A DNA stretch of 64,000 nucleotides from Ostreococcus lucimarinus (lineage: Eukaryota). A program made the position numbers and the translations under genes. Location of the stretch: NCBI GenBank assembly GCA_000092065.1, contig CP000590.1. One strand, given 5' to 3'. Below, one piece after another: positions 21,575-47,091 of the stretch (the stretch's first letter is position 1; each line of letters begins with the position of its first letter). The notes under the pieces are model-generated. The model was not told the origin of the DNA, made no database searches, and saw nothing but the letters and a program-made list of their open reading frames with translations.

Positions 21575-21908
21575 CGACGCGTCCGATCGCGCGCGCGCGC
21601 GTCCTCGTCCTCGCTCTTCGCGTCCTCGTCCTCGCGCGTCGCTCTTCGCGCTTCGCCTCGCGCCTCCGCGTCGCGTCGGGGGGACGAACGCGTCGAGCCG
21701 TTGGACTTTAAACGACACTCGCGTCGCCCGTTCGGCGCCGCGCGTCGCCGTCCCGCGTCTCCGGTCCGCCGCGCGCTCGTGCCGACGACGCGCGTCTCTT
21801 CCGCGCCGTTCGCCGCGATCCGGCGCGTCGGCGCGTCGCGTCGCGTCGTCGTGTGCCGCGTCGGCGCGTCGGCGCGGACGCCCGCGATGCGATGAAAACA
21901 CGCGCCGG

Positions 21909-21962
21909 ACTGTTTGCGCATACGTATATACGGAAACACACGTCGTACTGTTTGCGCATACG
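21909..21962. repeat. Two perfect 16-bp direct repeats (ACTGTTTGCGCATACG) in the Aurora / PH-RCC1-BRX divergent promoter
   Basis: The copies lie at 21909-21924 and 21947-21962; identity extends to 19/20 when the next 4 nt are included. This is the only AT-richer patch between ATG 21574 (minus strand) and ATG 22084 (plus strand). Confidence 0.8.
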
Positions 21963-22083
21963 AATACGACGCGAGGCGCGAAAGCCATCCACCGCGCGCG
22001 CGCGCGCGTCGTCACTCGCCGCCGCGCGCTCGGACCGCGCGCGACGCGCGACGCGCGCGCGCGCATGTCCACCGCGTAGCGCC

Positions 22084-24954: not shown

Positions 24955-25008
24955 AACATTGGAAATGAAATTCGTCTGTATTCTACGATCAACTGCTGTG
25001 CTATTCTC

Positions 25009-25851
25009 CTAGTCGTCCGATTCTCGATCGGGCATCCACGACACTATGACGTACAAAAACGCCAAAAAGTCGTACAACGTGTGCGTAAACATCGCACTCC
25101 CTAACCCGTCGCGCACACTCTCGATCGAAAACAAAACGCTCGCCCACGTGGCCCACACCGCGTACTGCGGCGTGATGGCGTGCAGCGCGCCGAAAACCAG
25201 CGAAGTGCTCGCCAACGACCCCATCGCCGCGACGTCTGCGCCCGCCCCGAGCCCTTCCAACCGCGCGTCAACCCATGGCATGAGAAAGCCACGGAACAGC
25301 GCTTCCTCACCCACACCCGCGCCGCAACTCAGCGCCAAAATCCCGAGCACGCCGAGCGGCGCCACCGCCGGGAGCACGCTCTCCTCAAACATTTTCCTCA
25401 CCTCTCGTAAATACTCGTACTTGTCGCTCTGCGTCACCGCGAACGACAGCGATGCTAACAGAGGTATCATGTACAGCGCCGCCGCGTCGACGTTGAACGC
25501 GGCGACGCCGTCGATGACGTCCGGGTGCACGTCCGCGAACTGCGTCAATACTTGTGAGCCCACCGCCATGCCGGCGTAAAACGCCACCGACGCGCGAAGA
25601 AATCCGCGCGAGTCGATCGCTCCGGTTCGCGCGTTTACCGAACCGTCGCTCAGAGGCCCTTGATCGTCCGTGGACGACCGCGCGGCGACGAAACCATCGC
25701 GCGAGGCGCGAGGGAGGGCGAAACGGATAGACAGGGACGGCGTCGTCGTCGTCGCGCTGCGCGACGCGAGACGCGGCGAGCGGCGCGAACGCGACGTGGA
25801 CGCGCGCTCGACGCCGGCGCGCGCGCGCGCGGGAGCGAGGGCGACGCGCAT
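25009..25851 (-). CDS. CPBP (CAAX protease / Abi) family intramembrane metalloprotease, organelle-targeted
   Basis: Motifs GVGEEALFRGFLMPW and LVFGALHA..., several TM segments, and a Ser/Arg/Ala-rich transit-peptide-like N-terminus. ATG at 25851. Confidence 0.75.
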   Translation of the reverse strand: MRVALAPARARAGVERASTSRSRRSPRLASRSATTTTPSLSIRFALPRASRDGFVAARSSTDDQGPLSDGSVNARTGAIDSRGFLRASVAFYAGMAVGSQVLTQFADVHPDVIDGVAAFNVDAAALYMIPLLASLSFAVTQSDKYEYLREVRKMFEESVLPAVAPLGVLGILALSCGAGVGEEALFRGFLMPWVDARLEGLGAGADVAAMGSLASTSLVFGALHAITPQYAVWATWASVLFSIESVRDGLGSAMFTHTLYDFLAFLYVIVSWMPDRESDD

Positions 25852-25911
25852 CGCGCGCTGAAAAGTGTGGTGGCGTCGCGCTCCGTACTACATGGTGCTT
25901 TCGCGCGCGCG

Positions 25912-26973
25912 TCACGTCTTCTTGGGCTTGCCCACGGTCAACAGCTCGGCGCCTAAGAATTTCACCGATTCCGCGACGCCGATGGCATCGCCCGAACCAA
26001 CCTTGATCAAACCACCGCGAAAGTGGTCGTAGCCAGCGTCGGCGCCTAAATCGCGCTCCGCCGCCGCGCGCGTCACGTGACTGTCCACCACCGCGAGCGT
26101 GCACTTTTCGCTTCGAATCGCGTCGAGCGTCGCGGCACACATCGCCTCGCGCGCCGCCGCACCGTCGGCGGCGCTTCCGATCGTCGGCGGAAGCACTAAA
26201 CGCGCGCCCGCCGCGAAGGCGGCCAACGCGCCGAATCCAAAGCCCATCGCGTGCCCGAGCGGCACCGGCACGCACACCGAATCCGTCTCCCTAATCTCCA
26301 ACGCCCGCACCGCGCGCGTCGCCGCGTCCGCGAACGTCATCCCTCCCACCGGCGCGTCCGCGCCACCGAAATAATACATCGCATCGTTCGCCGTCTCCAT
26401 CGCGTCGCTCGCCGTCTCGCCGTTCGCGTACGCCGCGCGCAGCACCTCCCACAAGATTACTTTATCCCGCACCGTCCCACCGCCCACCGCGATCGGTTCG
26501 TGCGCCCCGATCAGCCCTCCCGCCGTCTCCGCGTCTTCGCGTCTCACCATCGTCCCGCGCGTGCGTCCATCGCCGAACGTCTCCCGCAAATCATCCGTCG
26601 CCCTCGCGCCTCGCGCGCTCGTCCCCGCGAGCGCCGTCCCCAGGTACGCCACCACGCTCTCTCGCGCGTTCCCCGTCCCGACGCCCAGCGGTCTCGACGA
26701 CGCGTCGTATCCGAGGTCTTCCAGCGCGCGCGCGAACGTCAGCGCGCGATCGAGCAGTTCGCCGTACGTCCACTCGTCGCGCGCGCGCGTCCCGCTCGCG
26801 CCCGTCGTCGTCACCGCCGCGCGCTCGGCGTCCGCGCGTCGCAGCGCGTCGCGCGCGAAGCGTCCGAGCGTGTCCCGCGTCGCGCCGTTCGCGAGCCGTC
26901 GCGCGCGCATCGTCGACGCGTCGTCGGTCGCGTCTCGAAGTGCGCGCGTCGCCATTCGTCGTCGCGTCGCCAT
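25912..26973 (-). CDS. Truncated, degenerate AMP-dependent synthetase/ligase (ANL)-like protein
   Basis: ANL N-domain layout: WTYGELLDRALTFARALEDLG, VPVPLGHAMGFGFGALAAFAAGARLVLPP. The P-loop position reads YYFGGADAPVGG instead of T-S-G-T-T-G-x-P-K-G, and the ORF ends before the usual Y-G-x-T-E block. Start could be ATG 26973, 26955 or further in. Confidence 0.5.
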   Translation of the reverse strand: MATRRRMATRALRDATDDASTMRARRLANGATRDTLGRFARDALRRADAERAAVTTTGASGTRARDEWTYGELLDRALTFARALEDLGYDASSRPLGVGTGNARESVVAYLGTALAGTSARGARATDDLRETFGDGRTRGTMVRREDAETAGGLIGAHEPIAVGGGTVRDKVILWEVLRAAYANGETASDAMETANDAMYYFGGADAPVGGMTFADAATRAVRALEIRETDSVCVPVPLGHAMGFGFGALAAFAAGARLVLPPTIGSAADGAAAREAMCAATLDAIRSEKCTLAVVDSHVTRAAAERDLGADAGYDHFRGGLIKVGSGDAIGVAESVKFLGAELLTVGKPKKT

Positions 26974-26983
26974 TCGTCGACGC
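26948..26983. repeat. 18-bp tandem duplication (17/18) at the start of the ANL-like gene
   Basis: GTCGCCATTCGTCGTCGC followed by GTCGCCATTCGTCGACGC. It duplicates the start context (MATRRR-MATR) and ends 1 nt before the cyclophilin ATG on the other strand. Confidence 0.85.
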
Positions 26984-26984
26984 G

Positions 26985-27704
26985 ATGGCGCCGTCGCACG
27001 CGTACCTCGACCTCGACGTCGACGGACACCGAGAGAAACACGCGCGCGCGCGCGCCTTCGTCGCGGCGACGAACCTGCGGTACGGGTTCGACGGCGACGA
27101 CCTCGACGGATTGGGCGGCGCGCAGCGGAGTCGAATCGTCGAGCTGTACGAGGCGGATCGCGAGTGGGGCGCGCGCGGGGCGATTCGAATCGACGCGCCG
27201 ACGCGCGAGCGCGTGGTGTTTGAACTGTTCGACGCGAAGAGCGCGCGGGCGTGCGAGAATTTTCGAGCGCTGTGCGAGGGAATGGGGACGTCGAGAGCGA
27301 CGGGGCGGCGGCGGACGTACGAGGGGAGTCGAATGCATCGGTGCGTGAGGAATTTTATGATGCAGGGCGGCGATTACACGCACGGGAACGGGGCGGGGGG
27401 GGAATCGATTTGGGGGAAGAAGTTTAAGGACGACGCGGGAGGGTTGAAGCTGAAGCACGATGCGATGGGCGTGCTTTCGATGAGCAACACGGGGAAGAAT
27501 TCGAATTCGAGCCAATTTTTCGTCACGCTCGGAGCGTGTAAGCATTTGGACGGGAAACACGTGGTGTTCGGGAAATGCGTGCGCGGGATGGACGTACTGG
27601 AGAGAATTAACGATGAGTGCGCGGTAGACGCGGGCGGGACGTCGGAGGAACCGAAGGTGCCCGTCGTCGTCGCGGGGTGCGGCGTTCTCGACGCGCTCGA
27701 TTAG
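26985..27704 (+). CDS. Cyclophilin-type peptidyl-prolyl cis-trans isomerase
   Basis: ACENFRALCEG, HRCVRNFMMQGGDYTHGNGAGGESIWG, LSMSNTGKNSNSSQFFVT, HLDGKHVVFGK. ATG 26985. Confidence 0.9.
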   Translation: MAPSHAYLDLDVDGHREKHARARAFVAATNLRYGFDGDDLDGLGGAQRSRIVELYEADREWGARGAIRIDAPTRERVVFELFDAKSARACENFRALCEGMGTSRATGRRRTYEGSRMHRCVRNFMMQGGDYTHGNGAGGESIWGKKFKDDAGGLKLKHDAMGVLSMSNTGKNSNSSQFFVTLGACKHLDGKHVVFGKCVRGMDVLERINDECAVDAGGTSEEPKVPVVVAGCGVLDALD

Positions 27705-27739
27705 AGAGGAATTCTAGCACATGTACTGTACGTTACAAT

Positions 27740-30700
27740 CTAAGGCGGGGATTCTTCCGTTTCTTTGAGAAGGCCCAGTGCATCGGGCGTTAGCTCCGAG
27801 TCGATCGCGCTCGCTTTACCCCACATCTTGCCCCACAGCGGATCGTCTCTCGGGACGATTTCGCTCGCGCAGAGGACGAGGAGAACATTCTTTATGGCTT
27901 CAGGGATCGCGTCCACGAGTTCCTCCGTCTTGGCGTGCTTGCGCAGTAAAGACGTAGCGTCTAAAATGGCGAGCAGGACGCTCGCAAACGCCGCAGCGTC
28001 TTCGTTTCGCATCTTTGAGCCGTATTGGAGCAACGTCTTTGATACGCAAGAAACCGCGATGCGCGCCGTGTTTTCTGCGGCGCCACCATCTTTGGCGCGC
28101 GTCTTGCGTACGGTTTCCGTCAGCTCCTGGAGCATCGTCAGCAAAACCGCATCAAACGTGGTAAGCCACAAGTCGCCGCCGGCGTCGAGCGATTCAGCGC
28201 CGAGCAACACGCGTTGCAACGTTAAAATCGCGTCATCGCGCACCATGGCGCGCGTATCTTCAAAGCTAATGCGACCGAGTTCGCGGACTAAATCGCCCCA
28301 AGCGCCGGCTATAATTTCAGCTTTTGCCTCATCAGTCACGGATGCGCTCGTTGCCCACGCGCACATCGCCATGTTTGCGTCCGAGAGCAATTGCAACGCG
28401 GCGACGCTTCGTTCGTCACCACCTTGCTCGCTGTCGACAAACGCGCTCGCCGCTTCGAGGCACGATCTCACGTTCGCGGCGTTCACTTTCGCCGCCTCTC
28501 GCATGATTCGCGTGAGTCCTGCAAATCCTGTTTCCGCAGCCTCCGCATGTCTCGCGCTCGCCATGAGAAGCTTGCACACCGTGTCCCAACTCTGTCGCGT
28601 TTTAATCTTGTCCGCGCCGTTGCTGATCAAAGAATCGATTTCGGCAACGATGCGGCCGAAGAACGCGTCTGCGACCGCGGGTTTGAGCGTGAACAAAACG
28701 GGCAGCGCATCTAACAAATCGTCGGCGACGTCCTCGTCGGTAGGAATCAGCTTGGCACACATTCGAATCAAGTCAAAAATGACGATTTCACACGCCGGTG
28801 ACGGGCTCTCTGACGCTTGGAGAACGGCTCTGAGGTAGCTCAATAGTATGGGTAAAACGGCACGAATACGGTCGCAATTGCGCAAAGTCACCATAAACAT
28901 GGCGTCGAGACAAAAGAGCGCGGCGTCTTCGTCATCTGCGGTGGCGGCGACGAGTCCGGGGTCCCCCGCGGCCCAAATTAGTGCTCGCATCAGATGTGTC
29001 AATGACTCGAGCTCCAAGAACTTTGTGTCGGCGAAAAGTTCTTTCACGCGACACGCTGTCGCACACGCCGTGGCAAGTTCCTCTATGCTCTGCTCCGCCT
29101 CGGACGGCGGTGGTAATGGCGAGTCGCGCCCGTCGTCGCCGGAAATCATCGCCGAAAATGACCGCAGCAAAGAAGAACCTTGGTTCCGCTTCGCCGCAGC
29201 GATCTCTCGTACTCGCATCGTCTGCATTTCCGATCGATGCGTGAAGTCGGATCCGCTTACAAATATATCCTCTGGAACCAAACCAACCTTAGTCATGCGC
29301 AGCACTGTGTCCAGAATATTGCACCATCCTTGACGAAGCGTGTCCCCGTACTTGTGTGCGATGCCAAAAATCGTCCGCGTCGCCGCGCAAGCCTTGATAT
29401 CCTCACCGAACACCACGAGCGGTCGCAATCGTTCGCCTGACGGCGACATCGCGTCCTTAGCCAAACTTTCATTGGAAAACTTGCATAGCGTGGCGACGAG
29501 TTGATCGAGAACTTCAGACATGCCGTGCGCAGCCGCAATGTTTGCCACCGACAGGAAACCTCCGAGGCTTGATTGCAACACTTTATCGTCCGCCGTGTGC
29601 TCAAACACGGCCGCAATCGCGGCTGTCGTCGAGCCCCAAACGATGCCGAATAATTCGCCGTCGTACAACGCCGCTTCAGCGAGATTGGGCGTCGGCGGTA
29701 GTTTGCCTTGGCCCGCCCCGACGTCGCGCGACAATTCCGCCCATCGGCTTGGCGTCAAGCTCATCGCCCCACCGTCGTCAAGCTTGATCTCGTCCGTGAC
29801 AATGGAATCGAATATGTTAACCAATACCTCGGCGGGCCAATCATTACCGCCATTTGTTCCGCGATTGTTGCGGATGAACTGTTCGAGCGTCATCTTATTC
29901 TTCACCTGCGCATTGTGTTGATCGGTGTTCAGCATAATTATACTGTACGACAGCACGTACGCCGAGTCCGCATCCGCTACGGAGTCCGGGTTCGCTTCAT
30001 AATAACGCGCAGCAAAACATTCGAGTATGCGAGAAATTTTCTGTGCTTCTCCGGGGAGCTTGAATCCAGACAAAAAGGATCGCAGAGCTCGATCAAGCGT
30101 GACATCTCGAAAGTCAAAGAGCTTGGTGTACTCATCCAAAACCGTGATAATGAACGCCGCGGGCTCGCCGAGGTAGTCGCCGACGACTTCCTTATCTAAA
30201 GCGGGCGCGAATTTCAAGAATCTCGCCACTGCCGCGGGTTCGAGCGGATCTGCCAAAAGTTTAATCTCTTGCATGAACGCCAAACCCTTCTTGTACGAGC
30301 GATTAAAATGTTCCGCCGCGCTCAATAGACGTCGCTTGAAGTATTTAGTCCTTGCACGAGCCTCGAACCGGCTTGGACCAGTGGTATCAGAGCCATCAGA
30401 CAGCGACCATGGGTCCATGACGACGGTGTTCGCGAATTCGAACGTCGGTCGCGTAGTCGCCGCCGGAGAGCGGTTGGACACAGCTTGCACAATGGACAAC
30501 AACCCTTCCAAGCTCAACAAATGCACGGGCGCGAGCGTCGCATCTCCTGGATACGATGCTTGCGCCAAAACACTCGTCACCTCTTCAAACACATTAGGCT
30601 TTGTGAGCTCGCAATCGTAGTACATGTACAAATCCGTCGCGAAATTGTCGTTCTTGCACAAATCCACGAGCGCCTCGAGTGCGACGCGTTGCGTCTCCTC

Positions 30701-32035
30701 TTCCACACCATTACGACTCGAGCACAGCGGCAAGAGAACCATGCGAACAAACACTTCTAAGTGTAACTTGAGTTCTTCTCGGAACTCACTGTAAATGATC
30801 GTTATGAGAGACGTCGACGCCGCCAACACGTGCGGCGAACACGACGTAACCACTCCGCACAACGCGCGCGAAAGATCATCCAAAACCAAATTCAATAGCG
30901 CATGATTCGCTCTGAAGTACTCAGCGTTCGCATCGATCATGATCGTCACGAGTTTTAGCCCAAACAAACTATTCGCATCCTCCGAACCACGACCGTGCGT
31001 GTCTGGGGCAATGAGACTCGTGGCGAACCGGAAAATTTCAATCAAAGCGGGCAACCCGTACGGCCCCTTCGCCACATCCGTGTGCTCGTGCGCGGTGACA
31101 TCCATTCCAGGTCCGGTCGCATGCGGACTATCGACGCCCGCATCGCCTCTCACGACCGCCGGGGGCGTAGCCGGGATCACGATGGCTTGCCTCGGCGACG
31201 TCAGTCGCGGTCCCTTCTCCCCCGTCGTCGCCTTTGCCTTTGCCGCGATCTCCCCCGTGCGCCGACTGACGTGATACACGATTTCGCTCAGCGTCTGCTT
31301 GCTCAATTCTCTCAACAACGGCGTCTCTTTCCCGCTCTGATGTCCAATACGATAGCACGCCTGAAACACGTCGCACAAATCGTCGTCGCTCAGCGCGTAA
31401 CCGCAGTCGCATCGCACGCACGCCGCCAGCACATACATAATCTGGCTCAACACCGCATCGTCATCGTCCACACTCGTCGCTTCAAACCTACACAGCGTCA
31501 CCGCGTCCGCGATGGCGTGCATGATCACCCCTGGGCCACCCGGCGCGTCCCTCGTCGCGACTTCGCTCTTCAAAATCTTCAAGATCGCGCTCAGCGCCTG
31601 CGCCGTGATCATCCCTCCCGTCTCCACGCTCCGTATCACGTCCAGAAACGGTTCGAGATATCGCAACGGAGTCATCGCATCGTCCTCTTCCGCGTCTCTC
31701 TCTTCGCTTTGCTCGCTCGCGTCGCTCGCGCTCGCTCGATCGCGTCCCCGCGCGCGCGTCCCCGCGTCCGCATCTTGCGTCCGTTCCGGCGGTCGCGCCG
31801 TCCGCAGCGCGACGAAGGCGTCCAACAGGGCGTCTTCGACGCCGTCTTCGTCGTACGCGTCGCTCGCGCCGTACAATCCGTACGCGTTGAGCGCGCTCGA
31901 GGCGCTCGAGCGACCGCTCCAGCGTTGATGCGCGCGCATCGAGGCGACGACGGCGCGCGCTTCGTGCTTGACGATCGTCGCGAAGCGCGCGGGATCGAAC
32001 GAGCGATTCGGCGGTGCGTCGACATCGCGCGTCAT
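27740..32035 (-). CDS. Large ARF guanine-nucleotide exchange factor, GBF1/GNOM type (Sec7 domain)
   Basis: A 1431-codon ORF with ATG 32035. HUS-box-like LYMYYDCEL, and a Sec7 core FKLPGEAQKISRILECFAARYYEANP...YSIIMLNTDQHNAQVKNKMT. Confidence 0.9.
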   Translation of the reverse strand: MTRDVDAPPNRSFDPARFATIVKHEARAVVASMRAHQRWSGRSSASSALNAYGLYGASDAYDEDGVEDALLDAFVALRTARPPERTQDADAGTRARGRDRASASDASEQSEERDAEEDDAMTPLRYLEPFLDVIRSVETGGMITAQALSAILKILKSEVATRDAPGGPGVIMHAIADAVTLCRFEATSVDDDDAVLSQIMYVLAACVRCDCGYALSDDDLCDVFQACYRIGHQSGKETPLLRELSKQTLSEIVYHVSRRTGEIAAKAKATTGEKGPRLTSPRQAIVIPATPPAVVRGDAGVDSPHATGPGMDVTAHEHTDVAKGPYGLPALIEIFRFATSLIAPDTHGRGSEDANSLFGLKLVTIMIDANAEYFRANHALLNLVLDDLSRALCGVVTSCSPHVLAASTSLITIIYSEFREELKLHLEVFVRMVLLPLCSSRNGVEEETQRVALEALVDLCKNDNFATDLYMYYDCELTKPNVFEEVTSVLAQASYPGDATLAPVHLLSLEGLLSIVQAVSNRSPAATTRPTFEFANTVVMDPWSLSDGSDTTGPSRFEARARTKYFKRRLLSAAEHFNRSYKKGLAFMQEIKLLADPLEPAAVARFLKFAPALDKEVVGDYLGEPAAFIITVLDEYTKLFDFRDVTLDRALRSFLSGFKLPGEAQKISRILECFAARYYEANPDSVADADSAYVLSYSIIMLNTDQHNAQVKNKMTLEQFIRNNRGTNGGNDWPAEVLVNIFDSIVTDEIKLDDGGAMSLTPSRWAELSRDVGAGQGKLPPTPNLAEAALYDGELFGIVWGSTTAAIAAVFEHTADDKVLQSSLGGFLSVANIAAAHGMSEVLDQLVATLCKFSNESLAKDAMSPSGERLRPLVVFGEDIKACAATRTIFGIAHKYGDTLRQGWCNILDTVLRMTKVGLVPEDIFVSGSDFTHRSEMQTMRVREIAAAKRNQGSSLLRSFSAMISGDDGRDSPLPPPSEAEQSIEELATACATACRVKELFADTKFLELESLTHLMRALIWAAGDPGLVAATADDEDAALFCLDAMFMVTLRNCDRIRAVLPILLSYLRAVLQASESPSPACEIVIFDLIRMCAKLIPTDEDVADDLLDALPVLFTLKPAVADAFFGRIVAEIDSLISNGADKIKTRQSWDTVCKLLMASARHAEAAETGFAGLTRIMREAAKVNAANVRSCLEAASAFVDSEQGGDERSVAALQLLSDANMAMCAWATSASVTDEAKAEIIAGAWGDLVRELGRISFEDTRAMVRDDAILTLQRVLLGAESLDAGGDLWLTTFDAVLLTMLQELTETVRKTRAKDGGAAENTARIAVSCVSKTLLQYGSKMRNEDAAAFASVLLAILDATSLLRKHAKTEELVDAIPEAIKNVLLVLCASEIVPRDDPLWGKMWGKASAIDSELTPDALGLLKETEESPP

Positions 32036-32248
32036 GTCGGGCGCGCGCGCGCGAGGGCGCGGCGAGTCGGCGTGTGAGGATCGATGGACGCGTCGCGGCA
32101 GTCTTGAACATCCAGCGCGCGGCGAGCGGCGACCGCGGCGCGGCGGCTCGATCGGAAACGATGCGCGCGAGCGCGCGGGTCGACGATCGGTTCGTGTGAC
32201 GCATGATTAATAACGTCTGTGTTCTAGCTATGTGTGCGATGTGCGCGG

Positions 32249-35200
32249 TCAAGGGTCGATTTCGCCGCGCTCGATGGCGGCTTGTCGCGCGGCGGCGCGC
32301 CGCTCGACGTCTTTTCGCGCGAGCTCGTCGGCTTGCGCGCGGAGGTTGGCGTATTCGGGCGGAATGCCGCCGGATTGCTCGAGCCACTTGCGCGCGGCGT
32401 CGTCGGGAAGTACGATGGCGACGTCCAAGCGCTCTTCATCGGACATTTGGGTGAGGTAGTGCTCGGCCCAATCCGGAAGCGGGACGCCTTCCTCCGCAGA
32501 GGCCATGCTGTGGATTTGGTCCTTGACGAGCCCCCAGAATTTTCCCTTGGAAGGGTCGTCCGACCAAATTGCGCTCATCAAATCGTCCCAATACACTTCT
32601 TGCTGTTCACCCCACGCGATGTCCCAAACCCCCATGCCACGATCGCGTGTGATACCAGCCTTTTCGAAGGCTTGCGCAAGCTGGCGACCGCCGATTTCTC
32701 GCGCCGTCGCGAGCGACTCCTTGAGCGAAAAGAGCATCTCTCTATTTTTCGGCTCGTGAAGAATCGCCACCGTACGCTGGGCCGCCTTAATCAACGTCTT
32801 TCTCACCTCATTGTACACTAATAAATCCAATTCAGGCGATAACTGCCTCATCACCTCGATGTGCTCAGTCTTGCCGACGCGCAGGTAACCTTCTTCGCGC
32901 GTAGGTTCGGCGGCGAGGGCGATGGGACCTAAATCACTCCACCCGTTCTGCATCACCATTTCGCACGCCAAATTCGTCGCAGCGGCGACATCGTGCATGC
33001 CGCGGGTCGTTACGTTCTCGGGACCGTACAAATAACGCTCCGCCATCTGGCCTGCGAGGAGTACGCACAGCTTGGCTTCGTAATACTCCATGGAGCGCAC
33101 CGTGCGAGCCGCGGGAGAGTCGACTTCATCCGGCACGTAGACGATTTGACCCGTGGCTACACCACCGTTAAACACCGTCACCTTGCTAATCTCGTCGTAC
33201 GAAGGCATGTGCATCGCGACCACGGCCTGCGCGGCGTAATAATTCACCACCGAGTCTCGTTCGTACGCGTCGAGTTGCGCGATGAGGGTATCTTCGAGCA
33301 TTCTATCGCGAGCCAAACTTCCGCTGCCACTTCCGTTGCGAACGAACGCTTGCGATCGTCGAATATCGTCGATGCAAAACAAGAAGTCACCCGTAGACGC
33401 GAGCGCCTTCTCGCCTTGCGCACAGCGCATGACGGCCGACTTGGTGAGGTTCTCGATGTCGGCGCCGCTGAAACCGGCAGTTTGTCTGGCGAGGTACTCG
33501 TAGTCCAAGTTGGGATCGACACTCGACGCGAACGATGGCTTGTTGCAGTGCAAGAACAAGATTTCTTGACGCGACTTCTTGTTCGGCAGACCCATCTCGA
33601 TGATGCGATCAAAACGACCGGCACGAATGAGCGCAGGATCGAGTACTTGCGGACGGTTCGTCGCCGCCAACACCATGATGCCCGTGGCGGTCGAGAAACC
33701 GTCCATCTCCGTCAGCATTTGATTGATCGTCGCCGTCGCTTCGTCGTTACCGTAAACCTGACCGGATTGTGTCTCAGTACGCTTCGTGCCGACGGCATCG
33801 AATTCATCGATGAAGATGATGCACGGCGCAACCTTCTTGGCTTGATCAAACAAGTTGCGAATACGCGCGGCTCCGACGCCGACGAACATCTCCATAAACT
33901 CCGTACCAGCGCATGAGAAGAAGGGCACATTTGCCTCGCCCGCGACACAACGAGCGAGCAACGTCTTACCCGTACCGGGCGGACCGCACAAAAGCACGCC
34001 TGCGGGAATGCGCGCGCCCATGGAGTTGTACTTTTCGAAATCCTTCAAGTAGGAAATGAGTTCAAACATTTCCGCCTTGACGTTGTCGATGCCGGTGATG
34101 TCCTTCAACGTCATCCCTTGGCGAACGTTCGAGTCGTAGTTACGCGTAGTCATGTTACCGAACATGTCTTCCGAGCTATCCTTGTACGTGCCTTCGTAAA
34201 TAAGCCACGCATAGAACACCATCACCATCGGCGTCAACGCGTTGAACAGGAACGCCGTAATCTCGAGCCAGCGAGGATACTTCTCCATCTCAATCTGAAT
34301 GACCCCTCCATTACCCGGTCTTTCGGTGACGAGCTTTTTGAACAACACCGGATCGTACGGAAGGTTGCAACCGAACACCTCCTCCGTGTCGTCGATGTAA
34401 TATCTAATGCTCGTCTCGTTGGCGCGGTACACCACGCGGTTGACGCGCCCGACGTCGAGTAATCTGTGGAACGACGTGTAAGACGTCTCCGTGGGGAATC
34501 TATCGGTGCCCATGGTTGAGTACGGATCGCGCAAGTACGCCAAGTTCACGTTGCGCACGAATCGTTCGCCGCGGTTGGAGAAAATCTTCTTGACGGGATT
34601 CTTCTTCTCCTGTTCGTACTTTTCGTACCGCTGGATGTCCTTCAAAACCTTTTCCTCCGCCGCGCTCAATTGCCTATTCCTACTCTCGGTGTGCTCACCA
34701 GTTTTCAACCCAACGAGTTCTTTCACCCTGTCCGCCATCACCTTCACCTTATCCACCTGTCCTCCCTGTTTGGGGGCCCTACGTTGGTGTTCTAAATTCA
34801 TTTTTTTCTTCTTCACCGTCCCGCGACGTCGTCGTCGTCTCTGCTTCGTCGGCGCCTCGACGACGCGCGGCTTATCCTCCGCGATCGCGTCGAGCTCTTC
34901 CAACAACTTCGCCGTCTCGTCCTCTTCATCCTTGGGATCGGAATCCACCGGCGCGATGTCGATCCCCACCCCCGCCACCTCGCCCACGCACGGCTCGCGC
35001 CGCGCGCTCGCCGTCGCCGCGCTCCTCGCCCCCTCCCGCCTCGCCTCGCGCGCCCCAGTCTCCAGCGCGCCCGCCGCTTTCGGCGCGCTCAACATCACCA
35101 ACGCCGCGATCGCGCCCATCTTCGTCGCCCGCTTCGCGCGCGCCCAGCCGTCGTCCGCGTTCGCGTCCCTCGCCGCGCGTCCCGCGCCGTCGTCGCCGCC

Positions 35201-35332
35201 GACGCCGCATCGCACCCCTCGTCCCCACCGCGCGCCCGCCTTCGCCCGCGCGACGCGCGCGCGTCGTCGTCCGAGTCCATCCGCGATCGCGCCGCGCGTC
35301 GGCGCGATCGTCGCGCCTCGCGCGATCGACAT
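32249..35332 (-). CDS. FtsH-like AAA+ protein with intact ATPase motifs but no zinc-protease HEXXH motif (FtsHi-type)
   Basis: Walker A GPPGTGKT, Walker B IIFIDEFD, and second region of homology [19 protein letters not shown]. At the position of FtsH A-Y-H-E-A-G-H-A the sequence reads [15 protein letters not shown]. Start taken at ATG 35332 (the ORF is open to 35605); the start is uncertain. Confidence 0.85.
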
Positions 35333-35676
35333 CGCGCGTCCGCGCGCGATCGGTCGAGTAAACCTAAGCCGCGATCGTCGAGCCGCGAATCGCGCGCGCG
35401 CGCGTCTCGAGGCGCGTCGAACCCGCGCGCGCGCGTCTCCCGACGCGTTCGCGACCTCGGCGCGCGCTTCGAGCGACCGCGCGTCGCGTCGCGCGCGTCG
35501 TCGTGTGCGCGCCGCCGCGCGCGGCGCGAGGGTTCGACGCGCGCTCGAATGATCGCGTTTCGTACGTCGTTTTCGACATACACTAGAGCATTTTAGCGCC
35601 ATCATTCAAAACGCTCGCGACGCGCGCCGACGCGCGCGCGACGGCGCGACGCGCGGCGACACCGCGACGCGCGACG

Positions 35677-36849
35677 ATGTCGAGCGTCGCGCCGACGCGC
35701 GCGCGATGGTCGTCGCGGCGGTTCGCGGGCGACGCGGGACGCGCGCGCGACGCGCGCGCGACGCGACGGCGCGCGCGAGATTTGAACGCGGCGCCGGCGA
35801 CGCGCGCGGGCGACGGCGACGGCGACGGCGCGGCGCTGGATTTCAACGCGTGCGCGCGCGAGCACGCGCGAGCGTTTCGCGCGACGCCGATGAGCGCGCG
35901 ACTGACGCGAGAGTTCGGGATGGGGGACTCGGGGACGGACGTGTCGCTCGCGCAGCGGTTGCTCGGGCGGGACGCGAGACGCGCGCACGGCGTGTGCGAC
36001 CGAGAGACGACGGAGGCGCTGCGCGCGTGGCAGATTTCGCGCGGATTAAAGCCGAGCGGGTTCTTCGGGGCGAGCTCGCGGGCGCAGATGGCGATGGAGG
36101 AGGAGCGGTGGCGCGAACTGGGGGGGGGGGCGCTGCTGGAGCGACTTTGGGAGGAGGAGGCGCGCGCGCGGGACGCGAGCGAACGCGCGAACGAACGCGC
36201 GGGAGGGAGCGGACGGACGCGCGGCGTGGTGGCGACGTCGACGACGCCGCGCGAAGCGCCGCGCGTCTCGCGCGTCGCGCGCGGCGCGTTGGTGTTGGTG
36301 GTCGCGTCGGCGGCTTTGGGCGCGGCGGCGCGTCTGAGAAATCGCGAGCGCTTCGCGGCGTTCGTCGATTCGGCGACGGCGTGGACGCGCGAATCGCGCG
36401 CGAAGGTCGCGCTCGACGTCGCGCGCGAGTTTATCGGCGCGTGCGGCGCGCGCGCGCGCGCGCGCTGGACCGAGATCGCCGCAGATTTCGCCGAGCGGCG
36501 CCGAGCGCTCGTCCGCGCCGCCGCGACGGCGATTTCTCGCGTTCGATCCGCGGCGGAACGCGTCGCGACGAACGACGCGCTCGACGCCGGCGCACCGCTC
36601 GCGGAGGGACACTTCGATGAAAACGGTCGCTGGTGGGAGTCCCCACTGCCCGCGTCCACGCCCAAAGCCGCCGACGCGAGGCCGCGTCCCGCCGAGCCGT
36701 CTCCGCGAGGCGGAGCGTCGACGGCTCGCGAGCGCGCCGAGCAAATGCGCGAGCGCTGGGTCAACATCCGTCGCCAACAGGTCGACGTCGGCGCGGACGA
36801 GCGTCGAGCGATTGAGCGCGTCTCTAAATTTCTCCGCGACGCCGAATGA
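35677..36849 (+). CDS. Hypothetical membrane protein with a peptidoglycan-binding-like (PGBD/PG_binding_1) motif
   Basis: MGDSGTDVSLAQRLLGRDARRAHGVCDRETTEALRAWQISRGLKPSGFFGASSRAQM fits the G-x-x-G-x-D-V-x-x-L-Q...T-x-x-A-L-x-x-F/W-Q...G-L-x-x-x-G pattern. One TM segment (GALVLVVASAALGAAA) and strong G/C third-position bias. It competes with long low-complexity ORFs on both strands. Confidence 0.45.
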   Translation: MSSVAPTRARWSSRRFAGDAGRARDARATRRRARDLNAAPATRAGDGDGDGAALDFNACAREHARAFRATPMSARLTREFGMGDSGTDVSLAQRLLGRDARRAHGVCDRETTEALRAWQISRGLKPSGFFGASSRAQMAMEEERWRELGGGALLERLWEEEARARDASERANERAGGSGRTRGVVATSTTPREAPRVSRVARGALVLVVASAALGAAARLRNRERFAAFVDSATAWTRESRAKVALDVAREFIGACGARARARWTEIAADFAERRRALVRAAATAISRVRSAAERVATNDALDAGAPLAEGHFDENGRWWESPLPASTPKAADARPRPAEPSPRGGASTARERAEQMRERWVNIRRQQVDVGADERRAIERVSKFLRDAE

Positions 36850-36939
36850 GCGCGCGCGCGCGATTTCAATGTACACGCATTCGTCGCCCTCGATTCGCTC
36901 CGTCGCCGCGCCTCCGCCGCGCCCGCACTCGACGACGCC

Positions 36940-38802
36940 ATGCTCGGTTTAGACACCTACGGCTCGTCCGATTCCGACGACGAGAACGACGCGCTCGCGA
37001 ACGTCGCGTCCGTCAAGCGCCCGATCGCGTCCGCGCCGCCCGTCGACGCCGGCGCGTTGGCGCTCGAGCGCGCGCTCGACGGCGATGGCGGCTCGACGGG
37101 AATGCGCGTCGTTCCGCTCGCGTCCACGCGCACGGTCGTCGGTGCGCGCGACGCGCGAACGCGATGGCATCGATCGATCGCTCGACGCGCGCGCGTCGCG
37201 CGAGGAACGCGCGTGGACGATGGACTGACGGAGATTCGTTCGACGCGCGCAGACCCGACGACGCGAGAGATGCGCGTGAACCTGACGTACGACGAGATGA
37301 CGGCCCCGATCGAGGGACCGAGGCACGAGACGCGAGAGGATAGACTCACGGGGCGAGGGGCGAGGAATCACGCGCTCGGGCAGGTGGACGCGACGACGGT
37401 GAACGCGTTTAGTTTCGACGAACAGTACAATACGTACAATTCGCGGGGGTACGCGGCGGCGCCGTCGGGGACTGGGGTCGTCGGTGACGCCGACGCGATG
37501 CGAGCGAGCAAGGGGGAGACGGCGTTTAATATTTCTGCGGCGAAAAAACGAAGGATTCGCGAGGAAGTGCTCGCGGGGGTGGCGACGCCGGCGAGCGGCG
37601 AGACGGATACGTCGGCGTGGGCGCCGGCTCGAGCGGCGCAAAAGGTGCTCGTGCACGATGATTTGTCGGAGAAGGAGAAGGAGTACGTGAAATGGCACAT
37701 GGATAATCGCGAGGCAAAGCTTCGGGCGAAAGGAAAGTTGGAAGGTTTGGAGACGGGTCCGGGCGAGGACGGCGGCGCTCAAGACGACTCAAAGTTTACA
37801 AAGTTTCACGGCTCGGAGGAAGTCAACTACGCGGGGGATTCTTGGATTGCGGCGCCAAAGAGCGAGAAGCGCGATGGAGATGGAACTTGCTTCGCGCCGA
37901 ACAAGTGCGTGCACACGTTTAACGGTCACACGAAGGGTGTGTCAAAGATTGAATTTTTCCCTCACACCGGTCACCTGTTGCTCTCGGCGGGCATGGACAA
38001 CGTGGTCAAGATTTGGGACGTGTACAACAGTCGAAAGTGCATGCGCACGTACATGGGACACGACAAGGCGGTAAAAGACGTGTGCTTCAACGGCGATGGC
38101 ACGCGCTTCGTGTCGACGTCGTGGGATAAAAAGGTTCGATTGTGGGACACGGAGACTGGCAAAATAATCCAAACCGTGACGAGCGGGAAAATCGGTTACT
38201 GCGCGAAGATTCATCCAAAGCAAGACAACTTGGTGTTGATCGGGCAGAGCGATAAAAAAATCGTGCAGTGGGACATGAACAACGGGGACTTGGTGCAAGA
38301 GTACGACCAGCATCTCGGGCCGGTGAACTCGATCACTTTCGCCGACGGCGGCGAACGCTTCATGTCCTCTTCGGACGACAAAACGCTTCGAGTTTGGGAG
38401 TTTGGAATCCCGGTGACGACTAAATACATCGCTGACCCGTCGATGCACTCCGTGCCCGCGACTGCGATATCGAACAACGGCAAGTACATCATCGGTCAAT
38501 CGCTCGACAATCAAATTATCACCTTTAGCGTCGACGAACGCTTTCGAAGAAACAACAAGAAACGCTTTGGTGGTCACCACAACGCCGGTTACGCGTGCCA
38601 GCCCGCGTTTTCTACCGATGACAGCACCGTCGTTAGCGGCGACGGGTCTGGTAAGATCTTCTTCTGGGATTGGAAGACGTCCAAAATCATCAAATCCGTC
38701 AAGGCGCACGCCGAGGTGTGCATCGGCGTCGCTTGGCACCCGCTCAAGAGCTCCGTCGTCGCGTCGTGCAGTTGGGACAAGACGATCAAGCTGTGGAAGT
38801 AG
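36940..38802 (+). CDS. PRP17: Pre-mRNA splicing factor PRP17/CDC40 (WD40), probably 2 exons: 36940-37141, 37253-38802
   Basis: N-terminal YGSSDSDDE and DPTTREMRVNLTYDEMTAPIEGP (compare the metazoan LDPAVKEVQYNPTYETMFAP), and a WD40 half with HTKGVSKIEFFPHTGHLLLSAGMDNVVKIWDV, VRLWDTETG and KKIVQWD. The 111-nt segment 37142-37252 has full intron signals and encodes only R-rich filler. Confidence 0.9.
   Translation: MLGLDTYGSSDSDDENDALANVASVKRPIASAPPVDAGALALERALDGDGGSTGMRVVPLASTRTVVGARDARTRWHRSIARRARVARGTRVDDGLTEIRSTRADPTTREMRVNLTYDEMTAPIEGPRHETREDRLTGRGARNHALGQVDATTVNAFSFDEQYNTYNSRGYAAAPSGTGVVGDADAMRASKGETAFNISAAKKRRIREEVLAGVATPASGETDTSAWAPARAAQKVLVHDDLSEKEKEYVKWHMDNREAKLRAKGKLEGLETGPGEDGGAQDDSKFTKFHGSEEVNYAGDSWIAAPKSEKRDGDGTCFAPNKCVHTFNGHTKGVSKIEFFPHTGHLLLSAGMDNVVKIWDVYNSRKCMRTYMGHDKAVKDVCFNGDGTRFVSTSWDKKVRLWDTETGKIIQTVTSGKIGYCAKIHPKQDNLVLIGQSDKKIVQWDMNNGDLVQEYDQHLGPVNSITFADGGERFMSSSDDKTLRVWEFGIPVTTKYIADPSMHSVPATAISNNGKYIIGQSLDNQIITFSVDERFRRNNKKRFGGHHNAGYACQPAFSTDDSTVVSGDGSGKIFFWDWKTSKIIKSVKAHAEVCIGVAWHPLKSSVVASCSWDKTIKLWK
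37142..37252 (+). other. Probable in-frame, stop-free intron inside the PRP17 ORF
   Basis: GTGCGCGCG donor, ACTGAC at 37224-37229, CGCAG acceptor. The length is 111 nt (a multiple of 3). Removal joins ...ASTRTVV to DPTTREMRVNLTYDEM and deletes only R-rich filler. Confidence 0.6.
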
Positions 38803-46965: not shown

Positions 46966-47091
46966 TCTTCGCCCTCTGCGCGCCCGCGCGACGCGCAGTT
47001 CGCCGCTCGCGCGTCGTTCTGACGCGCAGTCGTTCAAGATTTTTGAATTTCAACGACGCGCGCGCGACAGTCGCGGCACTCGCGCGCGCGC

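What the first reader, a model, noticed from the sequence alone, without database searches (positions are those of the whole stretch)
32249..35332. FtsH-like AAA protein with a destroyed protease site (FtsHi-type)
Walker A, Walker B and the arginine-finger region are intact. The zinc-binding H-E-x-x-H of FtsH, however, reads Y-A-A-Q-A ([15 protein letters not shown]). In land plants such FtsHi proteins act as ATPase motor subunits at the chloroplast inner envelope rather than as proteases. The protein also has a long N-terminal extension and a C-terminal tail not found in plain FtsH.
Basis: partly seen in the sequence, partly recalled or inferred. Interest (0 to 1): 0.5.

Follow-up and report, generated by a model that had tools for sequence, protein, structure and literature searches.

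The report
Protease-dead FtsH-like ATPase in Ostreococcus-type alga
This nuclear gene of a tiny marine green alga encodes an FtsH-type membrane ATPase that keeps a complete motor domain but has lost its zinc protease site, so it is most likely a chloroplast protein-import motor subunit of the known FtsHi kind rather than a protease.

Summary
Window 32249..35332 (minus strand) is one intron-free gene of 1027 aa. It has canonical Walker A, pore loop, Walker B and arginine-finger motifs. No HExxH or HxxxH occurs anywhere in the ORF.

The loss is ancient and selected. Every orthologue recovered has Y[YFT]AAQ, including clusters that hold Ostreococcus tauri XP_003081545 and a partial Micromonas pusilla protein. 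The AAA module is 92% and the dead protease domain 80% identical among seven Ostreococcus-type relatives.

In NJ trees the gene's clade joins other HEXXH-less green-algal FtsH-like proteins. That group includes Chlamydomonas Fhl3, a solved subunit of the Ycf2/Orf2971-FtsHi import motor. Support against canonical FtsH is 95-100%. They share a FIDEFD Walker B signature. The gene's clade is a separate lineage from the Fhl3 orthogroup.

Localisation and partners were not testable. Published prasinophyte plastomes do encode the Ycf2-like partner.

Verdict: a new member of a known kind, of modest interest.

The parts
32249..35332 (-). Coding sequence of the FtsH-like pseudo-protease (1027 aa plus stop), no introns
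   Evidence: ORF list; identical-length gene calls on metagenome contigs; colinear alignment with 7 orthologues and with E. coli FtsH
35333..35605 (-). In-frame upstream extension of the ORF (91 codons), probably not translated
   Evidence: No homologue extends into it. Gene calls start at 35332. It lies in the ~290-bp divergent intergenic region shared with the 410-aa neighbour.
35120..35332 (-). Ala/Arg/Gly-rich N-terminal presequence-like region (residues 1-71 of the 1027-aa protein)
   Evidence: Composition A18 R14 G13 of 71. Poorly conserved: 30% pairwise identity. pLDDT below 50. A transit-peptide role is inferred, not tested.
35063..35119 (-). First hydrophobic segment [19 protein letters not shown] (TM1 or signal-like, ends in a conserved A-x-A)
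   Evidence: Kyte-Doolittle peak; consensus KIGAVAAFVLLxAPKAASA with 6 invariant positions
34706..35062 (-). Low-complexity acidic then poly-basic linker ([13 protein letters not shown])
   Evidence: Alignment A1: variable length but invariant R167, R169, T172, K175; 36% pairwise identity
34274..34705 (-). Two long helices followed by an FtsH periplasmic-type domain (PD-FtsH, core 34310..34492)
   Evidence: Weak Pfam FtsH_ext (E 0.014-0.07). AlphaFold alpha/beta unit with pLDDT 80-87. The SYT.F...GRV..V...LPYDP.L motif is shared with the Fhl3-like proteins and Fhl3 itself. 83% pairwise identity.
34196..34270 (-). Second transmembrane segment [25 protein letters not shown]
   Evidence: Hydropathy peak; aligns with TM2 of E. 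coli FtsH; helix 354-383 in the model
33419..33997 (-). AAA+ ATPase module with lid: Walker A 33962..33985, pore loop 33875..33892, Walker B 33797..33820, arginine-finger region 33605..33661
   Evidence: Pfam AAA E 5e-43 and AAA_lid_3 E 4e-10; motifs; 92% pairwise identity and 202 of 241 invariant columns among 7 orthologues
32696..33262 (-). Peptidase_M41-like pseudo-protease domain
   Evidence: Pfam PF01434 75.5 bits against cutoff 29.9; 80% pairwise identity among orthologues
33227..33241 (-). Y-Y-A-A-Q at the position of the zinc-binding H-E-x-x-H
   Evidence: HMMER alignment to E. coli FtsH H414-E415-A-G-H418; MAFFT; Y[YFT]AAQ in all 12 clade members examined
33038..33040 (-). Retained Glu (E856) at the position of the third zinc ligand of E. 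coli FtsH
   Evidence: Alignment (MAERY opposite LAEEI); invariant AGQMAERY in the clade
32252..32653 (-). Clade-specific Trp-rich helical C-terminal tail (134 aa)
   Evidence: No Pfam family. 43 of 134 invariant columns, including VWD.AWG...EVYWDD and P.W...YL. Predicted helices with pLDDT 78-91 at the end. No counterpart in E. coli FtsH or in the aligned part of Fhl3.

Best explanation
The gene encodes a membrane-anchored, FtsH-derived AAA+ ATPase whose M41 protease domain is catalytically dead. It belongs to the green-lineage FtsHi radiation.

Most likely mode of action, all inferred: the protein is imported into the chloroplast and sits in the inner envelope, with its PD-FtsH domain and N-terminal extension in the intermembrane space. 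Its AAA and pseudo-protease domains face the stroma. There it assembles into a hexameric ring together with the plastid-encoded Ycf2-like protein (ORF1260 in O. tauri) and possibly other FtsH-like subunits. The ring uses ATP hydrolysis and the intact aromatic pore loop to pull incoming preproteins through TIC. The conserved pseudo-protease domain forms the lower ring, and the clade-specific tail docks accessory subunits.

Shown here: the domain anatomy, loss of the zinc site, strong purifying selection on all folded domains, and grouping with Fhl3 and FtsHi2 rather than with active FtsH.

Not shown: plastid targeting, envelope location, partners and pulling activity.
For: Motor motifs are intact and almost invariant among orthologues.

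HEXXH is replaced by YYAAQ in all orthologues, and no alternative motif exists.

The protein scores 438.8 bits on TIGR01241 FtsH_fam, below the 600-bit equivalog cutoff, although it aligns over model positions 23-594 of 598.

The NJ clan of HEXXH-less green-algal proteins, including Chlamydomonas Fhl3, has 95-100% support under two distance corrections and three column sets. With FtsHi2 orthologues added, support is 74-100% on the AAA+M41 and AAA-only sets and 55% on M41 alone.

The Walker B signature FIDEFD, the DE[AS]..TINQ motif and the loss of the PRG strand are shared with the other HEXXH-less algal groups. The transcribed Fhl3 has FIDEFD, the related DESASIINE and no PRG strand. Canonical FtsH has none of these changes.

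Among motor subunits in the PDB, Fhl3 is the best match by sequence profile (E 2.5e-13) and by Foldseek (E 8e-35, 29% identity over 666 columns including the N-terminal domain).

Literature: all six Chlamydomonas core subunits lack HEXXH, keep the FtsH periplasmic and cytoplasmic domains, and carry extra elements used for assembly (bioRxiv 10.1101/2024.09.02.610899). ftsH/ycf2-like and ycf1 genes are present in all 12 prasinophyte plastomes compared, and Ostreococcus ORF1260 and Micromonas orf1577 are Ycf2-like (PMC4194372, PMC5344333).
Against: There is no experimental or computational evidence here for plastid targeting or for contact with Ycf2 or TIC.

The protein is more similar to bacterial FtsH than to any solved motor subunit. 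Identity is 33-37% against 18-29%, and the M41 profile gives E 1.5e-20 for E. coli FtsH against 2.5e-13 for Fhl3.

It is not in the Fhl3 orthogroup, and its relation to Fhl1, Fhl2, Ctap1, FtsHi1/3/4/5 and FtsH12 is untested.

The trees are distance-based with limited taxon sampling. Pseudo-proteases with relaxed M41 domains could attract each other, although the AAA-only trees agree.

Arabidopsis FtsHi3 is reported to lie outside the Ycf2 complex (PMC6460958), so being an FtsHi does not guarantee motor membership.
Confidence: 0.62

Rival explanations
1. It is an FtsHi-type pseudo-protease that works outside the Ycf2 import motor. It could form a separate envelope complex like Arabidopsis FtsHi3. 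Or it could be a non-catalytic partner in mixed hexamers with active FtsH, tuning quality control rather than import.
For: It forms its own lineage, distinct from the Fhl3 orthogroup. It is closer to canonical FtsH than to any solved motor subunit. It keeps the third-ligand Glu and a well-conserved M41-like domain. FtsHi3 is reported in a complex distinct from the Ycf2-FtsHi complex (PMC6460958).
Against: It shares derived sequence signatures and a well-supported clan with Fhl3. The lineage keeps the plastid Ycf2-like gene, which needs nuclear partners. None of about 25 Fhl3-type loci recovered from metagenomes carries the Mamiellophyceae tetranucleotide signature. This weakly suggests that this lineage fills that role.
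Confidence: 0.22
2. It is a mitochondrial inner-membrane AAA protein, an inactive relative of the m-AAA or i-AAA proteases.
For: The Arg/Ala-rich N-terminus could serve as either kind of presequence. YME1 and AFG3L2 are detectable structural relatives.
Against: The mitochondrial AAA proteases score far lower than bacterial FtsH and Fhl3. The clade groups with chloroplast motor subunits. Related HEXXH-less proteins were found only in green algae and in a dinoflagellate whose plastid derives from a green alga.
Confidence: 0.05
3. It is still a protease and uses other metal ligands, or it is a decaying pseudogene.
For: The third-ligand Glu is retained and the M41 fold is well conserved.
Against: Both His ligands and the catalytic Glu are replaced by Tyr, Tyr and Gln. 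The whole ORF contains no HxxxH. The replacement is fixed in every orthologue examined. The AAA module is 92% and the M41-like domain 80% identical across species, which rules out decay.
Confidence: 0.03

Closest known systems
Chlamydomonas reinhardtii Fhl3 (PDB 8xks_F, 8xqw_B/C), two copies per Orf2971/Ycf2-FtsHi import motor
   Same: Same architecture: long N-terminal extension, PD-FtsH domain, TM, AAA, M41-like domain without HEXXH. Shared FIDEFD Walker B signature, no PRG strand. Same bootstrap-supported clan. Best PDB motor match by profile and by Foldseek.
   Different: Only 29% identity. Fhl3 belongs to a separate orthogroup with YEAGK at the dead site (93% support). That group unites with a third group to the exclusion of this clade (84-89%). 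Fhl3 has a degenerate pore loop (VYSG) and GAPGTGKT, whereas this protein keeps the canonical MFVG and GPPGTGKT. The Trp-rich tail has no counterpart in the part of Fhl3 that could be aligned.
Arabidopsis FtsHi1/2/4/5 and FtsH12 of the Ycf2-FtsHi complex (PDB 8xku/8xkv)
   Same: FtsH-derived AAA plus M41-like proteins with N-terminal extensions. FtsHi2 orthologues (P0009-11) join the same clan in AAA+M41 and AAA-only trees (74-100%). All are detected by Foldseek.
   Different: Identity is only 18-29%. FtsH12 keeps HEXXH. FtsHi2 has NEAAM at the site and DELDA instead of DEFD. No 1:1 orthology is shown. FtsHi1/4/5 and FtsH12 could not be placed in the tree.
Canonical FtsH (E. coli FtsH, PDB 7vhp; TIGR01241; MEROPS family M41)
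   Same: Two hydrophobic segments flank a periplasmic-type domain. Full AAA module with identical pore loop. M41 fold. Retained third-ligand Glu. Highest pairwise similarity of any solved protein (E 7e-99, 33-37% identity).
   Different: HEXXH is replaced by YYAAQ. The TIGR01241 score is 438.8 against a 600-bit cutoff. About 250 extra N-terminal residues and a 134-aa tail. It falls outside the canonical FtsH groups in all trees.
Ostreococcus tauri XP_003081545.1 / Q010G3 / OUS43395.1 ('P-loop containing NTP hydrolase', 'cell division protein FtsH')
   Same: Orthologue. It lies in the 90% cluster of P0004, which is 73% identical over 74% of the 1118-aa ORF and 67% over the full alignment. Same length class and YFAAQ at the dead site.
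   Different: Different species. It carries only a generic automatic annotation, and no FtsHi assignment was found in the searchable literature.

Membership tests
Canonical FtsH zinc metalloprotease (MEROPS M41 / TIGR01241) | AAA+ module with Walker A, Walker B, aromatic pore loop and arginine fingers | tested here: met
   [39 protein letters not shown]; Pfam AAA E 5e-43
Canonical FtsH zinc metalloprotease (MEROPS M41 / TIGR01241) | HEXXH zinc-binding and catalytic motif in the M41 domain | tested here: not met
   YYAAQ aligns with HEAGH; no HExxH or HxxxH in the ORF
Canonical FtsH zinc metalloprotease (MEROPS M41 / TIGR01241) | Score above the curated equivalog cutoff of TIGR01241 FtsH_fam | tested here: not met
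   438.8 bits against a cutoff of 600; NF008004 gives 349 bits against 1008
Canonical FtsH zinc metalloprotease (MEROPS M41 / TIGR01241) | Peptidase_M41 fold present | tested here: met
   PF01434 75.5 bits against cutoff 29.9; Foldseek TM-score (target-normalised) 0.77-0.78 to FtsH cytosolic regions
Canonical FtsH zinc metalloprotease (MEROPS M41 / TIGR01241) | Two transmembrane segments flanking a periplasmic/lumenal FtsH_ext domain | tested here: inconclusive
   Two hydropathy peaks. FtsH_ext is only weak (E 0.014), but the motif is conserved and the model is confident. The first segment could be a cleavable signal.
FtsHi (green-lineage pseudo-protease FtsH homologues; subunits of the Ycf2-FtsHi import motor) | FtsH-derived AAA plus M41-like protein lacking the zinc motif | tested here: met
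FtsHi (green-lineage pseudo-protease FtsH homologues; subunits of the Ycf2-FtsHi import motor) | Phylogenetic grouping with characterised FtsHi subunits, apart from active FtsH | tested here: met
   NJ clan with CrFhl3 100/95-99/96% (AAA+M41 / AAA only / M41 only). With FtsHi2 orthologues 74-100%, but 55% on M41 alone. Caveats: distance method and incomplete reference set.
FtsHi (green-lineage pseudo-protease FtsH homologues; subunits of the Ycf2-FtsHi import motor) | 1:1 orthology to a named subunit (Fhl1/2/3, Ctap1, FtsHi1-5, FtsH12) | tested here: not met
   Excluded from the Fhl3 orthogroup (Fhl3-like plus third group 84-89% without it). Not tested for the other subunits because their sequences were not retrievable. 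Foldseek identities are 18-29%.
FtsHi (green-lineage pseudo-protease FtsH homologues; subunits of the Ycf2-FtsHi import motor) | Plastid-encoded Ycf2-type partner present in the lineage | not tested
   Literature only. ftsH/ycf2-like and ycf1 are in all 12 prasinophyte plastomes compared; O. tauri ORF1260, Micromonas orf1577 (PMC4194372, PMC5344333). The plastome of this window's organism was not available.
FtsHi (green-lineage pseudo-protease FtsH homologues; subunits of the Ycf2-FtsHi import motor) | Chloroplast inner-envelope location and physical association with Ycf2 and TIC | not testable with these tools
   Needs localisation and interaction experiments

The most novel reading that the evidence does not exclude
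Mamiellophyceae (Ostreococcus, Micromonas and relatives) may run a streamlined Ycf2-FtsHi motor. In it, this single nuclear lineage would supply most or all nuclear-encoded ring positions next to the plastid Ycf2-like protein. It is the least-derived FtsHi known, with a fully canonical pore loop and ATPase site. That would make it both a minimal version of the import motor and a near-intermediate between the FtsH protease and the FtsHi motor subunits.

The hint is weak. A metagenome scan with Fhl3-type patterns returned about 25 Fhl3-type loci. None carried the tetranucleotide signature shared by all loci of this clade (r 0.86-0.96 among clade loci; best Fhl3-type locus 0.64-0.75). Yet Mamiellophyceae are abundant in such data. 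The inventory of FtsH-like genes in a Mamiellophyceae genome was not made.
Probability: 0.15. Interest if true: 0.55.

Novelty: new member of a known kind. Interest (0 to 1): 0.3.

Why it matters
The Ycf2-FtsHi complex is the proposed ATP-driven motor of protein import into green plastids. It has been characterised only in Arabidopsis, tobacco and Chlamydomonas. This gene shows that the smallest free-living green algae keep an FtsH-derived pseudo-protease of the same radiation. It forms its own lineage and has an unusually well-preserved motor domain. O. tauri has a very small genome and, to my knowledge, can be transformed. The orthologue there (XP_003081545) is a practical entry point for asking what the minimal composition of the motor is, and whether all ring positions need distinct paralogues. 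As a sequence finding it is an expected family member, not a surprise.

Tried and rejected
1. The full-length word-index protein search was swamped by the low-complexity N-terminus. It gave only 13 hits.

2. A 13-sequence profile without the N-terminus returned a flood of bacterial FtsH and no named plant or Chlamydomonas proteins.

3. A profile of the M41-like domain plus tail returned only 7 hits, all from the same clade.

4. The exhaustive representatives search was dominated by proteins with several AAA modules. Relatives had to be re-ranked locally by the M41 domain.

5. PDB queries with the N-terminal region found nothing. The AAA-only query was swamped by p97/CDC48.

6. The afdb50 fold library was not available.

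7. Kikuchi et al. 2018 (PMC6305978) is not held.

8. P0009-P0011 are named 'FtsH 3' or 'hypothetical' by their sources, and I first used them as an outgroup. They turned out to be FtsHi2 orthologues: 1807 bits to 8xku_F. The trees were re-rooted accordingly.

9. I considered P0221, the top profile hit with HESGH, as a possible FtsH12-like algal protein. I rejected this: it is a bacterial FtsH with two AAA modules on 49% GC contigs.

10. The hypothesis that the gene is the Mamiellophyceae orthologue of Fhl3 is not supported by the trees.

11. I tried to decide whether Mamiellophyceae also carry Fhl3-type or third-group paralogues, using a metagenome scan plus tetranucleotide signatures. No clear case emerged and the test is weak, so this stays open.
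Full report
**What is there**

The minus strand carries one uninterrupted ORF, 32249..35605. Gene calls on two near-identical marine metagenome contigs start at the Met at 35332, giving 1027 aa (P0001, 99.8% identical). All homologues align from that Met.

The window is 61.7% GC and gene-dense, and the gene studied here has no introns. Its neighbours are typical green-lineage nuclear genes:
- a GBF1-like Sec7 GEF
- a PRP17-like WD40 protein
- a Kelch-PP1 phosphatase of the BSL type
- an RCC1+BRX protein
- a DP transcription factor

The 90% cluster of P0004 is 73% identical to the query over 74% of the 1118-aa ORF (67% over the full 1027-aa alignment). It contains Ostreococcus tauri XP_003081545.1 / Q010G3 / OUS43395.1. 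The cluster of P0225 (49% identical) contains a partial Micromonas pusilla CCMP1545 protein. The organism is therefore an Ostreococcus-type member of the Mamiellophyceae. The gene order FtsH-like, Sec7 GEF..., RCC1/BRX is kept in another member of the clade.

**Anatomy**

Pfam finds AAA (E 5e-43), AAA_lid_3, Peptidase_M41 (75.5 bits against cutoff 29.9) and a weak FtsH_ext.

Walker A (GPPGTGKT), the aromatic pore loop (MFVG), Walker B (IIFIDEFD) and the arginine-finger region ([19 protein letters not shown]) are canonical.

Two hydrophobic segments flank about 260 residues. These comprise:
- an acidic stretch
- a conserved poly-basic patch ([13 protein letters not shown])
- two long helices
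- an alpha/beta unit with the classical FtsH periplasmic-domain motif

The first hydrophobic segment ends in a conserved A-x-A, so it could be a membrane anchor or a cleavable signal. This was not resolved.

After the M41-like domain comes a 134-aa Trp-rich helical tail. It has no Pfam family.

The AlphaFold model (mean pLDDT 64.9) is confident for the PD-FtsH domain, parts of the AAA module, the M41-like domain and the end of the tail. It is disordered over most of the first 190 residues.

**The dead protease site**

HMMER against E. coli FtsH and two independent MAFFT alignments place H414-E415-A-G-H418 opposite Y789-Y790-A791-A792-Q793 (window 33227..33241). Both zinc-binding His and the catalytic Glu are lost.

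The ORF contains no HExxH and no HxxxH, so a shifted motif is excluded. The Glu at the position of the third zinc ligand is retained (E856).

The protein aligns over almost the whole TIGR01241 FtsH model but scores 438.8 bits against a 600-bit cutoff.

**Selection**

All twelve clade members examined carry Y[YFT]AAQ. Mean pairwise identity among seven Ostreococcus-type orthologues is as follows:

| Region | Identity | Invariant columns |
|---|---|---|
| Presequence-like N-terminus | 30% | 4/71 |
| PD-FtsH domain | 83% | 48/73 |
| AAA module | 92% | 202/241 |
| M41-like domain | 80% | 112/189 |
| C-terminal tail | 56% | 43/134 |

This is a functional gene with an ancient, fixed loss of catalysis and a still-constrained pseudo-protease domain.

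**Relatives**

Re-ranking the exhaustive search by the M41-like domain gave several other HEXXH-less FtsH-like groups. The list below counts the query's own clade as the first group:
- G1 is the query's own clade.
- G2 has YEA[AGS][KR] at the dead site. Members include Picocystis and a dinoflagellate with a green-alga-derived plastid.
- G3 has MAAAK, YCAGK or HEAG[IR]. Members include Cymbomonas KAK3256446.
- G4 is a single Prasinoderma protein with YTAGR.

I transcribed residues 282-983 of Chlamydomonas Fhl3 from a PDB alignment (8xks_F). Its M41 fragment matches G2 best (about 155 bits), and it joins G2 with 93% bootstrap support. G2 is therefore the Fhl3 orthogroup.

P0009-P0011 are named 'FtsH 3' or 'hypothetical protein' by their sources. 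P0009 is an orthologue of Arabidopsis FTSHI2: it scores 1807 bits to 8xku_F, and Chlamydomonas Fhl2 is its best algal match. P0011 is 78% and P0010 51% identical to P0009.

**Trees**

NJ trees used 460 AAA+M41 columns and 100 bootstraps. I repeated them with gap-free columns, gamma-corrected distances, AAA only and M41 only.

| Grouping | Support |
|---|---|
| G1 | 100% |
| G1+G2+G3+G4 against all canonical FtsH (bacterial, E. coli, red-algal Cyanidium) | 100% AAA+M41; 95-99% AAA only; 96% M41 only |
| Same clan plus FtsHi2 orthologues | 74-100% AAA+M41 and AAA only; 55% M41 only |
| G2+G3 without G1 | 84-89% |

So the gene belongs to the FtsHi radiation but is a lineage of its own, not the Fhl3 orthologue.

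Derived signatures agree with the trees. FIDEFD replaces FIDE[IL]DA, DE[AS]..TINQ replaces DEREQTLNQ, and the IIPRG strand is lost. G1 to G4 share all three changes. Fhl3 has FIDEFD, the related DESASIINE and no PRG strand. Canonical FtsH has none of the three.

**Comparison with solved structures**

The M41+tail profile of the clade hits E. coli FtsH at E 1.5e-20, Fhl3 at 2.5e-13, Arabidopsis FtsH12 at 1.3e-5 and FtsHi5 at 7e-3. No other motor subunit is hit.

Foldseek gives the following:

| Target | E-value | Identity |
|---|---|---|
| E. coli FtsH | 3e-38 | 33% |
| Fhl3 | 8e-35 | 29% over 666 columns, including the N-terminal domain |
| Arabidopsis chains, including FtsH12, FtsHi2 and FtsHi5 | 2e-29 to 2e-24 | 18-29% |

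The protein is therefore the least-derived FtsHi-type protein in this comparison. It keeps the canonical pore loop, where Fhl3 has VYSG.

**Function**

The Chlamydomonas structure paper reports that all six core subunits (Orf2971, Fhl1, Fhl2, two copies of Fhl3, Ctap1) lack HEXXH. Their N-terminal domains lie in the intermembrane space. Their AAA and pseudo-protease rings lie in the stroma. They carry extra elements used for assembly (bioRxiv 10.1101/2024.09.02.610899).

Prasinophyte plastomes, including Ostreococcus and Micromonas, retain ftsH/ycf2-like and ycf1 genes (PMC4194372, PMC5344333).

By homology, the most likely role is an ATP-hydrolysing, substrate-engaging subunit of the inner-envelope Ycf2-FtsHi import motor. 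Targeting, location and partners are inferred, not shown. A role outside that complex, as reported for Arabidopsis FtsHi3 (PMC6460958), remains a real alternative.

**An open lead**

A metagenome scan with Fhl3-type M41 patterns returned about 25 YEAxK/R loci. Loci carrying the query's clade share a tetranucleotide signature (r 0.86-0.96 among themselves, 0.98 for the same species). The best Fhl3-type locus reaches only 0.64-0.75, and the G3 loci -0.1 to 0.47.

This hints, weakly, that Mamiellophyceae may lack Fhl3-type and G3 paralogues, so that this lineage may fill several ring positions. A genome inventory is needed to test this.

**Verdict**

The finding is a new member, and a distinct lineage, of a known kind. 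In O. tauri the orthologue is annotated only generically, and no paper in the searchable library discusses FtsHi in Micromonas or Ostreococcus. Interest is modest.

Noticed in passing
window 35620..36852 (+): A 410-aa Ala/Arg-rich ORF is divergently transcribed from the FtsH-like gene. It is called as a gene on both near-identical metagenome contigs but has no Pfam family.
   Followed up: partly
window 21853..32035, compared with L084/L085: The gene order FtsH-like, GBF1-like Sec7 GEF, AMP-binding fragment, RCC1+BRX protein is conserved in a related species whose protein is 65% identical over the full alignment (P0007 genome).
   Followed up: partly
window 44044..47037 (-) and 21853..24954 (+): A Kelch-repeat PP1-like phosphatase (BSL/BSU1 type) and an RCC1+BRX (PRAF-like) protein are present. 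To my knowledge both architectures are typical of the plant lineage, which fits a green-algal nuclear origin for the window.
   Followed up: no
window 47092..48942 (+): A 616-aa ORF has no Pfam match at E 1e-5. It is unclear whether it is a real gene or a GC-driven ORF.
   Followed up: no
window 30000..38000, both strands: Many long ORFs (100-450 aa) overlap real genes on the opposite strand or in other frames, for example 35583..36956 (-) and 32993..33916 (+). Their translations are rich in Arg and Ala. High GC content probably produces them as artefacts, and they should not be read as genes.
   Followed up: no
L003, L009, L011, L012 (proteins P0226, P0231, P0227, P0092): This is a further family of HEXXH-less FtsH-like proteins, with MAAAK/R at the dead site and a degenerate third-ligand region (GPRAGLTLL). 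It sits in conserved synteny (bestrophin, ribosomal protein L19, FtsH-like, CCDC89-like) on 62-71% GC picoeukaryote contigs. Their tetranucleotide signature differs from the window's. The organism is unknown.
   Followed up: partly
L004/L005 (P0221) and P0015, P0017, P0024, P0030 and others: Bacterial FtsH homologues carry two to five AAA modules in tandem. P0221, for example, reads FtsH_ext-AAA-AAA-M41 on 49% GC contigs. They crowd the top of the exhaustive protein search.
   Followed up: partly
P0087 (EukProt 'Dinoflagellata sp. MGD'): An Fhl3-group pseudo-protease (YTAGK) is encoded by a dinoflagellate that, to my knowledge, has a plastid derived from a green alga. This suggests that FtsHi-type motor subunits were carried along with the green endosymbiont.
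   Followed up: no
P0009-P0011 (Noccaea, Malus and one unnamed protein): P0009 is named 'FtsH 3' and P0011 'hypothetical protein' by their sources. P0009 is an FtsHi2 orthologue (NEAAM at the dead site; 1807 bits to PDB 8xku_F). Database names in this family are unreliable.
   Followed up: yes
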